DNA from: a virus
Lineage: Duplodnaviria > Heunggongvirae > Uroviricota > Caudoviricetes
IMG/VR virus record: IMGVR_UViG_2541047909_000002
DNA: 16,681 nt
Direction: 5' to 3' (one strand)
Part shown: in pieces, positions 536 to 1,619 of the stretch
How positions within the stretch are numbered: the first letter of the stretch is position 1
How the letters are laid out: each line of letters starts with the position of its first letter
Translations under genes and position numbers: made by a program
Notes under the pieces: generated by a model
Seen by the model: only the letters and a program-made list of their open reading frames with translations
Told to the model about the DNA's origin: nothing
Databases searched by the model: none

Positions 536-841
536 TTATCGACAGGTCAGGTCACCGCTCACCCGCCGACGAGAAAGCAACACTGACATGCTAAAGCAAA
601 AAATAGATGAATAAGTTGAGTTGTGCATATGTAGCCTGACCGTCACAAAGTATATGGTGTCTGTACCAGTAAGATGATGGCCGGACTCTTTAAAAACGAG
701 CTGACCTGCACAATACAGGATGGACTTAGCAATGGCTGCTCCTGGCACAAAGCGGACAGTGATCACCGTTCTTACGACTACTTTCTGACTTCCTTCGTGA
801 CTTGCCCTAAGCATGTTGTAGTGCGATACTTGTAATGACAT
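536..841 (-). CDS. ydfV: Hypothetical prophage protein YdfV-like (101 aa)
   Basis: 101-aa minus-strand ORF, same length and position as K-12 ydfV between flxA and relB; its start codon lies inside the relB operator, so whether it is truly coding is uncertain. Confidence 0.4.
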   Translation of the reverse strand: MSLQVSHYNMLRASHEGSQKVVVRTVITVRFVPGAAIAKSILYCAGQLVFKESGHHLTGTDTIYFVTVRLHMHNSTYSSIFCFSMSVLLSRRRVSGDLTCR

Positions 842-854
842 TTGTAATTACAAG
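802..854 (+). promoter_or_regulatory. relBE promoter (TTGCCC-N17-GATACT) with overlapping operator relO
   Basis: -35 TTGCCC at 802-807, 17-nt spacer, -10 GATACT at 825-830; perfect palindrome TTGTAATTACAA at 842-853 and related half-site CTTGTAATGACA at 829-840, immediately upstream of relB. Confidence 0.55.
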
Positions 855-865
855 AGGTGTAAGAC

Positions 866-1105
866 ATGGGTAGCATTAACCTGCGTATTGACGATGAACT
901 TAAAGCGCGTTCTTACGCCGCGCTTGAAAAAATGGGTGTAACTCCTTCTGAAGCGCTTCGTCTCATGCTCGAGTATATCGCTGACAATGAACGCTTGCCG
1001 TTCAAACAGACACTCCTGAGTGATGAAGATGCTGAACTTGTGGAGATAGTGAAAGAACGGCTTCGTAATCCTAAGCCAGTACGTGTGACGCTGGATGAAC
1101 TCTGA
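866..1105 (+). CDS. relB: RelB antitoxin (79 aa)
   Basis: 79-aa product MGSINLRIDDELKARSYA... matches recalled K-12 RelB; stop overlaps the relE start (TGATG). Confidence 0.95.
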   Translation: MGSINLRIDDELKARSYAALEKMGVTPSEALRLMLEYIADNERLPFKQTLLSDEDAELVEIVKERLRNPKPVRVTLDEL

Positions 1106-1392
1106 TGGCGTATTTTCTGGATTTTGACGAGCGGGCACTAAAGGAATGGCGAAAGCTGGGCTCGACGGTACGTGAACAGTTGAAAAAGAAGCTGGTTGAA
1201 GTACTTGAGTCACCCCGGATTGAAGCAAACAAGCTCCGTGGTATGCCTGATTGTTACAAGATTAAGCTCCGGTCTTCAGGCTATCGCCTTGTATACCAGG
1301 TTATAGACGAGAAAGTTGTCGTTTTCGTGATTTCTGTTGGGAAAAGAGAACGCTCGGAAGTATATAGCGAGGCGGTCAAACGCATTCTCTGA
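1105..1392 (+). CDS. relE: RelE mRNA interferase toxin (95 aa)
   Basis: 95-aa product MAYFLDFDERALKEWRKLG... matches recalled K-12 RelE; translationally coupled to relB. Confidence 0.95.
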   Translation: MAYFLDFDERALKEWRKLGSTVREQLKKKLVEVLESPRIEANKLRGMPDCYKIKLRSSGYRLVYQVIDEKVVVFVISVGKRERSEVYSEAVKRIL

Positions 1393-1463
1393 ACCAAAGC
1401 ATGACATCTCTGTTTCGCACCGAAGGTGACACTTCTGCTTTGCGTTGACAGGAGAAGCAGGCT

Positions 1464-1619
1464 ATGAAGCAGCAAAAGGCGATGTTAATCGCCCTGATCG
1501 TCATCTGTTTAACCGTCATAGTGACGGCACTGGTAACGAGGAAAGACCTCTGCGAGGTACGAATCCGAACCGGCCAGACGGAGGTCGCTGTCTTCACAGC
1601 TTACGAACCTGAGGAGTAA
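1464..1619 (+). CDS. hokD: HokD (RelF) small membrane toxin, Hok/Gef family (51 aa)
   Basis: Not in the ORF track (under 60 aa). ATG at 1464 translates to MKQQKAMLIALIVICLTVIVTALVTRKDLCEVRIRTGQTEVAVFTAYEPEE, stop at 1617-1619; GGAG upstream. Confidence 0.85.
   Translation: MKQQKAMLIALIVICLTVIVTALVTRKDLCEVRIRTGQTEVAVFTAYEPEE

What the first reader, a model, noticed from the sequence alone, without database searches (positions are those of the whole stretch)
802..1619. Three-gene toxin cluster relB-relE-hokD with its operator overlapping the start of divergent ydfV
A type II module (RelBE) is followed 71 bp later by a Hok-family type I toxin gene in the same orientation. The relO palindromes (829-853) cover the predicted ydfV start codon at 841-839, so either ydfV translation is coupled to RelBE autoregulation or ydfV is not a real gene.
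Basis: partly seen in the sequence, partly recalled or inferred. Interest (0 to 1): 0.4.

Follow-up and report, generated by a model that had tools for sequence, protein, structure and literature searches.

The report
Known relBEF toxin operon; ydfV doubtful
This is the long-studied relB-relE-hokD (relBEF) toxin operon of the E. coli K-12 Qin prophage, and the neighbouring "gene" ydfV, whose start codon lies inside the RelB operator, looks like a chance open reading frame rather than a conserved protein gene.

Summary
Window 1-2059 is 100% identical to the E. coli K-12 Qin prophage. It carries relB (866-1105), relE (1105-1392) and hokD (1464-1619, 71 nt after relE), the classical relBEF operon. 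The RelB operator relO consists of four [A/T]TGT[A/C]A hexads at 830-853. The second hexad, read on the minus strand, is ATGTCA, and its ATG (841-839) is the annotated ydfV start. The relBE/ydfV overlap was published in 2025 as an "excludon".

The ORF spans a mosaic joint. Residues 1-33 belong to a mobile relBE cassette (window ~738-1449) and residues ~35-101 to an flxA-linked segment. Each half occurs elsewhere fused to unrelated sequence. In 62 relBE loci from other species the operator-initiated antisense ORF is 1-94 aa, most variants are frameshifted at codon 20, and substitutions show no codon-position bias. ydfV has no Shine-Dalgarno sequence and no homologues.

One result goes beyond the finding. 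hokD has lost its Sok/mok leader exactly at its ribosome-binding site. The same relBE-hok joint recurs with different hok genes on hundreds of plasmids.

The parts
802..830 (+). PrelBE promoter: -35 TTGCCC (802-807), 17-nt spacer, -10 GATACT (825-830). The inferred transcription start is ~838.
   Evidence: Relaxed hexamer scan. The start site is inferred from relO spanning -10 to +17 relative to the start in PMC2812701.
830..853 (.). relO operator: four RelB hexads [A/T]TGT[A/C]A. They are TTGTAA 830-835 (+), ATGTCA 841-836 (-), TTGTAA 842-847 (+) and TTGTAA 853-848 (-). These form two abutting 12-bp half-sites.
   Evidence: unique, none expected by chance. The motif definition comes from PMC2812701. 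The operator is conserved in relBE loci of other genera down to ~75% DNA identity.
866..1105 (+). relB, the ribbon-helix-helix antitoxin and autorepressor (79 aa).
   Evidence: Pfam RelB 1e-32. NCBIfam equivalog NF008412 scores 133 bits against a cut-off of 96.
1105..1392 (+). relE, the ribosome-dependent mRNA interferase toxin (95 aa). Its start codon overlaps the relB stop (TGATG).
   Evidence: Full-length match to PDB RelE chains 4FXE/4V7J at E ~1e-57.
738..1449 (.). Mobile relBE cassette (upstream region, promoter, operator, relB, relE and a 57-nt tail ending ...GCGTTGACA). It has no terminator of its own.
   Evidence: Homology blocks w738-1450 at ~99% identity in Kluyvera, Enterobacter, Citrobacter, Klebsiella and other loci, and on plasmids. 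No terminator-like site lies before 1688.
1393..1463 (+). relE-hokD spacer. Positions 1393-1449 are cassette tail. Homology to hok loci resumes at 1450 (Shine-Dalgarno GGAG at 1451-1454).
   Evidence: Alignments with relBE-less hokD loci and plasmid cassettes.
1464..1619 (+). hokD (relF), a Hok-family membrane toxin ORF (51 aa). It is the third cistron and lacks its Sok/mok leader.
   Evidence: Pfam HOK_GEF 1.2e-23. There is no Rfam sok hit in the window, whereas the relBE-less allele L002 has a sok hit of 112.7 bits directly upstream.
1688..1715 (+). Intrinsic terminator of the hok 3' region (stem 1688-1705 plus T-run). It is the only terminator-like site of the relBEF unit.
536..841 (-). Annotated ydfV ORF (101 aa), a chimera across the cassette's left joint. 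Codons 1-33 (841-743) are antisense to the PrelBE upstream region. Codons ~35-101 lie in the flxA-linked segment.
400..757 (.). flxA-linked prophage segment that supplies the C-terminal two-thirds of the ydfV ORF. It also occurs without relBE.
   Evidence: H7/L001 homology ends at ~750-757. The segment is present in 1210 of 5426 E. coli genomes, with 1208 of 1213 matching records >=99% identical and the other 5 at 95-99%.

Best explanation
The locus is the classical relBEF operon of the Qin cryptic prophage. Sequence shows, and the literature establishes, the following. One promoter (802-830) drives a tricistronic mRNA from about 838 to the hok terminator at about 1715. RelB dimers bind the four relO hexads (830-853), which overlap the -10 box and the transcription start. 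RelE acts as co-repressor at low RelE:RelB ratios and releases the complex when in excess (conditional cooperativity). hokD is a Hok-family toxin ORF whose own promoter, mok frame and Sok antisense RNA were replaced by the relBE cassette exactly at the hok ribosome-binding site (joint at 1449/1450). I infer that hokD transcription therefore depends on the RelBE-controlled promoter. ydfV is most likely not a conserved protein-coding gene. Its ATG is simply the first three bases of relO hexad 2 (ATGTCA), kept because RelB needs them. The 101-codon frame exists only because a K-12-type 1-nt difference at w781 and the particular flxA-side junction happen to leave it open. Phenotypes attributed to ydfV (Tn10 insertion, point mutations 'in ydfV' over the relBE promoter) are best read as effects on PrelBE/relO. 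Any divergent 'ydfV' transcript would interact with relBEF at the level of transcription, not through a YdfV protein.
For: Identity: 100% to K-12-type genomes with the ydfV/relB/relE/hokD annotation.

Operator: four exact hexads, unique in the window, matching the published motif and footprint.

Co-transcription: no terminator lies between relE and hokD and the only one is at 1688-1705. Northern blots with relB, relE and relF probes detect one full-length mRNA (PMC3598666).

hokD without Sok: a sok model hit is present directly upstream of the identical hokD in a relBE-less prophage (L002) but absent from the window. Homology starts at w1450.

ydfV:
- (i) The two halves of the ORF occur separately with unrelated partners, and the joints lie at w738-757.
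- (ii) Among 62 relB loci from other species, 40 keep an operator ATG. Their ORFs run 1-94 aa with a median of 33 over 28 distinct products, and none reaches 100 aa.
- (iii) All 16 aligned cassette variants other than the four K-12-type copies carry a +1 or +2 nt insertion at w781, which shifts the frame after codon 20. Variable columns by codon position are 19/33, 25/32 and 28/32, so position 2 varies almost as much as position 3.
- (iv) The ATG is lost where hexad 2 reads ACGTCA.
- (v) The sequence upstream of the ATG is CACCTCTTGTAATTACAA, with no Shine-Dalgarno, and only one weak (8/12) minus-strand promoter-like site lies downstream, at 1001-972.
- (vi) There is no Pfam, NCBIfam or PDB match. 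An exhaustive HMMER scan of 1.84 billion representatives gives only same-DNA fragments plus multi-stretch hits in giant repeat proteins.
- (vii) Shadow ORFs of this size are common here, for example a 126-aa ORF antisense to relBE at 848-1228.
- (viii) YdfV protein was undetected where its RNA rose 4.8 log2 (PMC8910356). The effect of the ydfV::Tn10 insertion was reversed by relB, not ydfV, overexpression (as summarised in PMC12288877, and PMC5436854).
Against: RNA-seq work reports a ydfV transcript whose level moves inversely to relBE under four antibiotics, and it calls ydfV a functional component (PMC12288877). Something is therefore transcribed leftwards, and a young lineage-specific protein cannot be excluded. 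The flxA-linked two-thirds of the ORF is essentially invariant (1208 of 1213 matching records >=99% identical), so no substitution test is possible there. Failure to detect a 101-aa basic protein in one proteome is weak evidence. The K-12-type frame is intact in >1100 E. coli genomes, although this is expected from near-identical DNA. Whether hokD is actually translated from relBEF mRNA was not tested here.
Confidence: 0.85

Rival explanations
1. ydfV is a genuine, evolutionarily young protein-coding gene. Because its promoter-proximal region and start codon overlap PrelBE/relO, its expression is mutually exclusive with relBEF, and YdfV protein contributes to the stress response. [quoted passage not shown]
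For: The ORF is intact in all K-12-type copies and PGAP names it. The transcript has been detected and is inversely regulated to relBE. The RNA is induced under microaerobiosis.
Against: The frame is not conserved in any other relBE cassette variant. The ORF has a chimeric origin. It has no Shine-Dalgarno sequence and no homologues. The protein was not detected. The genetic effect mapped to relB, not ydfV.
Confidence: 0.1
2. The ydfV region matters as a non-coding divergent transcript. A leftward transcript that starts inside relB and crosses relO/PrelBE interferes with relBEF transcription, and vice versa (an excludon). In this view the ORF is irrelevant. This is compatible with the main explanation of the ORF itself.
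For: Overlapping divergent transcription and inverse expression are reported in PMC12288877. A weak minus-strand promoter-like site lies at 1001-972 inside relB. Any leftward polymerase has to cross the RelB2-RelE-occupied operator.
Against: No convincing minus-strand promoter was found. In many cassette copies elsewhere, a hairpin (GTCCGCTT-N8-AAGCGGAC) lies at the left cassette end, ~100 nt from relO. Inverse expression after translation-inhibiting antibiotics can also arise from the known RelB-degradation and mRNA-cleavage dynamics. No transcript data could be examined here.
Confidence: 0.3
3. hokD is a dead relic. It is co-transcribed, but without mok-coupled translation it is effectively untranslated, so the 'three-gene toxin cluster' is functionally a two-gene module plus passenger.
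For: Loss of the whole hok leader. From my own recollection, not checked here: Pedersen & Gerdes 1999 regarded hokD as inactivated by a rearrangement. One cassette-linked hok is truncated (L014).
Against: hokD keeps an intact ORF with a good Shine-Dalgarno sequence (GGAG 1451-1454, 9 nt before the ATG). The HokD coding sequence is toxic when expressed (bioRxiv 10.1101/2025.08.07.668861). The relF portion is the most abundant fragment of relBEF mRNA after toxin-induced cleavage. Intact hok ORFs of at least six sequence types follow the cassette on other replicons, including a type found on 453 plasmids.
Confidence: 0.3

Closest known systems
relBEF operon of E. coli K-12 (Qin prophage; b1564-b1562): Bech 1985, Gerdes 1986, Gotfredsen & Gerdes 1998, Overgaard 2008/2009, Boggild 2012
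   Same: The sequence is identical. The promoter, four-hexad relO, relB, relE and relF/hokD are the same, as are the 24-nt and 71-nt spacers.
   Different: Nothing differs within 1-2059. In this strain the next gene, rem, is interrupted by IS1414 (2060-3374).
[quoted passage not shown]
   Same: The Hok-family ORF, the hok 3' stem-loops and the terminator are present.
   Different: There is no Sok RNA, no mok start and no 5' tac/ucb leader. These are present in the relBE-less allele of the same hokD (L002) and are replaced here by the relBE cassette at the hok Shine-Dalgarno sequence.
relBE-ydfV 'excludon' (ExcludonFinder, NAR 2025, PMC12288877)
   Same: It concerns the same pair of divergent units and the same overlap of ydfV with the relBE promoter.
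   Different: That work treats ydfV as a functional gene. The comparative data here indicate that the ORF is a non-conserved chimera, so only the transcript-level interaction remains plausible.
Plasmid-borne relB-relE-hok cassettes (e.g. IncHI2 plasmids of Klebsiella, Enterobacter and Salmonella)
   Same: They carry the same relBE cassette at ~99% identity, the same joint at the hok Shine-Dalgarno sequence, and a hok ORF as third cistron without Sok.
   Different: The Hok proteins are different (visibly diverged from HokD in the listing, weak phmmer scores of about 1e-9 to 1e-10) and the flanks are different. Upstream, the antisense ORF is 33-64 aa rather than the 101 aa of ydfV.

Membership tests
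RelBE type II toxin-antitoxin module | RelB/DinJ-family ribbon-helix-helix antitoxin encoded first | tested here: met
   Pfam RelB 1e-32 over 1-79. NCBIfam equivalog NF008412 scores 133 bits against a cut-off of 96.
RelBE type II toxin-antitoxin module | RelE-family mRNA interferase encoded second, translationally linked to the antitoxin gene | tested here: met
   Full-length match to solved E. coli RelE chains (4FXE, 4V7J) at E ~1e-57. TIGR02385 scores 54.7 bits. The stop and start codons overlap in TGATG at 1103-1107. K52, K54, R61, R81 and Y87 are readable in the sequence; their catalytic roles are from my own knowledge.
RelBE type II toxin-antitoxin module | Autoregulatory operator overlapping the promoter (relO, four [A/T]TGT[A/C]A hexads, no spacing between half-sites) | tested here: met
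   The exact 24-bp pattern lies at 830-853, is unique and is not expected by chance. It overlaps the -10 hexamer at 825-830. The motif is from PMC2812701.
RelBE type II toxin-antitoxin module | Lon-labile antitoxin and conditional cooperativity | not testable with these tools
   Both are established experimentally for this identical sequence (PMC2812701, PMC3507626).
[quoted passage not shown] | Hok/Gef-family small membrane toxin ORF | tested here: met
   Pfam HOK_GEF 1.2e-23. The protein is identical to the one annotated HokD in RefSeq.
[quoted passage not shown] | Sok antisense RNA gene and hok mRNA leader upstream of hok | tested here: not met
   No RF01794 hit in the window at the gathering threshold or at E<=10 in 700-1800. 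As a positive control, the relBE-less allele L002 gives 112.7 bits directly upstream of the same hokD.
[quoted passage not shown] | Overlapping mok reading frame that starts upstream of hok and couples translation | tested here: not met
   Only a 3' remnant frame (1445-1612) remains, with no family match. The upstream part is replaced by the relE 3' flank.
Conserved protein-coding gene (applied to ydfV) | Reading frame preserved in homologous DNA of related elements | tested here: not met
   ORFs from the operator ATG are 1-94 aa in 40 of 62 loci and absent in 22. A +1 or +2 nt indel at w781 occurs in all 16 aligned cassette variants other than the four K-12-type copies.
Conserved protein-coding gene (applied to ydfV) | Substitutions concentrated at third codon positions | tested here: not met
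   Variable columns are 19/33, 25/32 and 28/32 for positions 1, 2 and 3 over w745-841. The flxA-linked part is invariant, so it cannot be tested.
Conserved protein-coding gene (applied to ydfV) | Homologues beyond near-identical DNA copies, or a known domain | tested here: not met
Conserved protein-coding gene (applied to ydfV) | Translation initiation signals and detected product | tested here: inconclusive
   There is no Shine-Dalgarno sequence upstream of the ATG. The protein was undetected in one proteome (PMC8910356). No ribosome-profiling data were available to me.
Excludon (divergent genes with overlapping transcripts) | Experimentally mapped overlapping 5' transcript ends of the two divergent units | not testable with these tools
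   Reported in PMC12288877. That paper's supplementary tables are not held. The sequence shows only a weak minus-strand promoter candidate.

The most novel reading that the evidence does not exclude
The terminator-less relBE cassette (window ~738-1449) has repeatedly become joined to different hok genes at the very same nucleotide, the hok ribosome-binding site. In each case it removes the Sok/mok control region. The result would be a widespread class of hybrid operons in which a type I membrane toxin is governed by a type II module's promoter and operator instead of an antisense RNA. Examples are Qin hokD and an IncHI2-plasmid hok found in 453 plasmid records, and at least six Hok sequence types in all are involved. 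In two hok lineages (Qin hokD and the IncHI2 hok) the native-leader allele still exists for comparison (L002, L074). If the arrangement is selected rather than accidental, RelB degradation would release two mechanistically different toxins from one switch. I found no discussion of this in the papers searched.
Probability: 0.3. Interest if true: 0.45.

Novelty: already known. Interest (0 to 1): 0.15.

Why it matters
As submitted, the finding re-describes one of the best-studied toxin-antitoxin loci, and an overlap that was published in 2025, so it adds little. The useful outcome is a correction. ydfV is still carried as a gene in K-12 annotation and is now being interpreted as a functional partner of RelBE. 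The comparative data show that its frame is an accident of one cassette variant and one insertion junction, and that its start codon is an operator hexad. Mutations 'in ydfV' should therefore be read as relBE promoter or operator mutations. The recurrent relBE-hok joint is a modest lead on how mobile toxin-antitoxin cassettes capture and re-wire other toxins.

Tried and rejected
- Codon-position or dN/dS test on the flxA-linked two-thirds of ydfV. This was impossible because 1208 of the 1213 matching E. coli records are >=99% identical, and the distant search of the E. coli genomes found nothing more diverged than 95-99% identity.
- Search for a ydfV promoter. The standard scan found none on the minus strand. 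A relaxed scan gave only ACGGCA-18-TATACT at 1001-972, an 8/12 match, which is too weak to assert.
- Hairpin sequestering the hokD Shine-Dalgarno sequence in the relE-hokD spacer. The MFE pairs the region, but the z-score is only -1.2, so this was not pursued.
- Terminal inverted repeats as a sign that the cassette is a transposable unit. An imperfect gapped inverted repeat (w734-771 versus the reverse complement of 1421-1458) beats all 2000 shuffles in the window and 1999 of 2000 in L004. It is absent from the 83-94% identical cassette variants tested (L023, L015, L025), and the ungapped repeat tool recovered only a 13-nt junction-spanning part of it in the window (735-747 with 1446-1458) and nothing in L004 or L023. 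It is left unexplained and not claimed.
- isrK-like hit in the hokD 3' UTR. It scores 25 bits against a gathering threshold of 50 and consists mostly of two hairpins plus a terminator. It is treated as hok 3' structure, not an sRNA call.
- Mok/DUF5431 assignment for the 1445-1612 frame. There is no Pfam or NCBIfam hit.
- Primary papers Bech 1985 and Gerdes 1986 are not held. They are cited only through PMC3598666.
- Structure prediction of YdfV was not attempted. A single orphan sequence without an alignment would give an uninformative low-confidence model.
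Full report
**What is in the sequence.** Window 1-2059 is 100% identical to K-12-type E. coli chromosomes, where it is annotated flxA / ydfV / relB / relE / hokD / rem in the Qin cryptic prophage. The whole 16.7-kb window matches strain HSP425 exactly. relB is 866-1105 and relE is 1105-1392, with stop and start overlapping in TGATG. hokD is 1464-1619, a 71-nt gap lies between relE and hokD, and ydfV is 536-841 on the minus strand. Family assignments are unambiguous. RelB scores Pfam 1e-32 and NCBIfam equivalog 133 bits. RelE matches the solved E. coli RelE chains at E ~1e-57. HokD scores Pfam HOK_GEF 1e-23. YdfV matches nothing in Pfam, NCBIfam or the PDB.

**The operator and the start codon.** Read against the published RelB recognition hexad [A/T]TGT[A/C]A (PMC2812701), the region resolves into four abutting hexads:
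- TTGTAA at 830-835 (+)
- ATGTCA at 841-836 (-)
- TTGTAA at 842-847 (+)
- TTGTAA at 853-848 (-)

This 24-bp pattern occurs once in the window with no mismatch, and never in 200 shuffles even with two mismatches allowed. The promoter is TTGCCC (802-807), a 17-nt spacer, then GATACT (825-830). The published footprint runs from -10 to +17, so the mRNA start falls at about 838 (inference). The annotated ydfV ATG (841-839, minus strand) is therefore the first three bases of hexad 2. Its T and G belong to the four central bases that the mutagenesis showed to be critical for repression. The start codon is explained by operator function alone.

**What is already known.** relB, relE and relF (= hokD) are co-transcribed. 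Northern blots with three probes detect one full-length relBEF mRNA (PMC3598666, which cites Bech 1985 and Gerdes 1986). The 24-nt ydfV-relB spacer and the 71-nt relE-hokD spacer are tabulated in PMC5120126. The overlap of ydfV with the relBE promoter was published in 2025 as the 'relBE-ydfV excludon'. That paper reports inverse RNA levels under four antibiotics. It also notes that the ydfV::Tn10 suppressor of RNase E lethality was reversed by relB, not ydfV, overexpression (PMC12288877; PMC5436854). The finding as written therefore contains nothing new.

**Is ydfV a gene?** Five lines of evidence say probably not.

First, the ORF is a chimera. DNA homology to relBE-less prophages (flxA side) stops at about 750-757. 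Homology to relBE cassettes elsewhere starts at about 738. Predicted proteins in public databases share either residues 1-33 followed by unrelated tails (Citrobacter, Cronobacter, Salmonella, Enterobacter), or residues ~40-101 preceded by unrelated heads.

Second, the frame is not conserved. In 62 relB loci from other species, 40 have an ATG at the equivalent operator position. The ORFs from it are 1-94 aa, with 28 distinct products, a median of 33 aa, and none of 100 aa or more. All 16 aligned cassette variants other than the four K-12-type copies carry one or two extra bases at w781, which shifts the frame after codon 20. Variable alignment columns fall 19/33, 25/32 and 28/32 on codon positions 1, 2 and 3, which is no coding signature. 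Where hexad 2 reads ACGTCA the ATG is gone.

Third, there is no Shine-Dalgarno sequence (the upstream sequence is CACCTCTTGTAATTACAA) and no convincing minus-strand promoter.

Fourth, an exhaustive HMMER scan of 1.84 billion representative proteins finds only fragments of the same DNA and multi-stretch hits in giant repeat proteins.

Fifth, ORFs of this length are common shadows here. A 126-aa ORF lies antisense to relBE itself.

There are limits to this argument. The flxA-linked two-thirds of the ORF is essentially invariant across about 1200 genomes, so it cannot be tested by substitution pattern. A transcript has been reported. I had no ribosome-profiling data. I put the probability that ydfV encodes a functional protein at about 0.1. 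A transcript-level interaction with PrelBE remains possible at about 0.3 and does not depend on the ORF.

**hokD and the cassette.** Thousands of E. coli genomes carry hokD without relBE, and their homology to the window begins at 1450, 14 nt before the hokD ATG. In such a prophage (L002) Rfam's sok model scores 112.7 bits directly upstream of the identical hokD. In the window there is no sok hit, even at E<=10. hokD therefore keeps its Shine-Dalgarno sequence (GGAG 1451-1454), ORF, 3' structures and terminator (1688-1705 plus T-run), but its own promoter, mok start and Sok gene have been replaced.

The replacing unit is a discrete cassette, window ~738-1449, ending ...GCGTTGACA. It is found at ~99% identity in many enterobacterial genera and on hundreds of conjugative plasmids. 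It has a promoter and operator but no terminator, consistent with the view quoted in PMC5120126.

The same cassette is followed, at the same spacing, by other Hok-family ORFs of at least six sequence types. One type, on IncHI2-like plasmids, occurs as a relB-relE-hok unit in 453 plasmid records (an annotated example is). The relBE-less allele of that hok has a native hok leader, interrupted by IS150. No sok model hit occurs in seven cassette-hok loci. DNA identity falls from about 99% to an unalignable level exactly at the joint, so these are recombinational joins and not gradual divergence. I could not decide whether they reflect repeated capture or one old fusion followed by hok exchange.

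**Mechanism.** Shown, or established for this identical sequence:
- PrelBE is repressed by RelB2 and RelB2-RelE at relO, with conditional cooperativity.
- The mRNA is tricistronic and ends at the hok terminator.
- RelE is a ribosome-dependent mRNase and HokD is a membrane toxin when expressed.

Inferred:
- hokD transcription is governed by RelBE autoregulation in place of Sok.
- ydfV-assigned mutations act through PrelBE/relO.

Not known: whether hokD is translated from the native mRNA.

**Verdict.** The finding is already known and of low interest (0.15). The recurrent relBE-hok joint is the only lead with some novelty.

Noticed in passing
window 465-492 (+): A near-consensus sigma-70 promoter-like site (TTGACA, 16 nt, AATAAT; 11 of 12 matches) lies in the flxA-ydfV spacer. 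It points rightwards through ydfV (antisense to it) towards relBEF. It might account for the PrelBEF-independent and longer-than-operon transcripts mentioned in PMC3598666.
   Followed up: no
window 2060-3374: An IS1414 (IS256-family) insertion with an 8-bp target duplication (2052-2059 = 3375-3382) interrupts rem near its 3' end. K-12 lacks it.
   Followed up: yes
window 734-771 and 1421-1458: The two ends of the relBE cassette form an imperfect, gapped inverted repeat of about 38 nt (0 of 2000 shuffles score as high). It is shorter in L004 and absent from the diverged cassette variants tested. Its meaning is unclear.
   Followed up: partly
L004:2360-2395, also L019, L022, L023: In many non-Qin contexts the left cassette end carries a hairpin, GTCCGCTT-ctggcaca-AAGCGGAC. 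In the window its left arm is replaced by flxA-side sequence (GCTGCTCC), which is part of why the antisense ORF runs on to 101 aa.
   Followed up: partly
L014, L061, L066 (relO region, about 2465-2490 in the loci): Some relBE relatives have a 12-bp deletion that removes one relO half-site, leaving only two hexads. L061 and L066 also have damaged relB.
   Followed up: no
L074:640-2200 (Salmonella IncHI2 plasmid pD90-1): IS150 sits inside the native hok leader about 60 nt upstream of the hok Shine-Dalgarno sequence. This is another disruption of a hok leader close to the ORF, as I recall being reported for the chromosomal hokA/C/E loci.
   Followed up: partly
window 1628-1709 (+): The hokD 3' UTR and terminator give a sub-threshold match to the Salmonella prophage sRNA family isrK (25 bits against a gathering score of 50; E 0.001 in a 281-nt search). 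This is probably just two hairpins plus a terminator.
   Followed up: partly
window 1602-1604: The HokD Tyr47 codon TAC lies in a TACG context. A recent preprint states that hokC, hokD and hokE mRNAs undergo A-to-I editing that recodes this tyrosine to cysteine. This was not examined here.
   Followed up: no
window 356-383 (-): GCCGATAG, preceded about 11 nt upstream by TAAAGATTT on the minus strand, resembles a sigma-28 (FliA) promoter for flxA. This rests on reading the sequence and on my own knowledge of the consensus.
   Followed up: no
window 6346-6738, 9248-9633 and 13142-13340: Rfam gathering-level hits: two cspA-type thermoregulator leaders (Qin csp genes) and the IS009 RNA.
   Followed up: no
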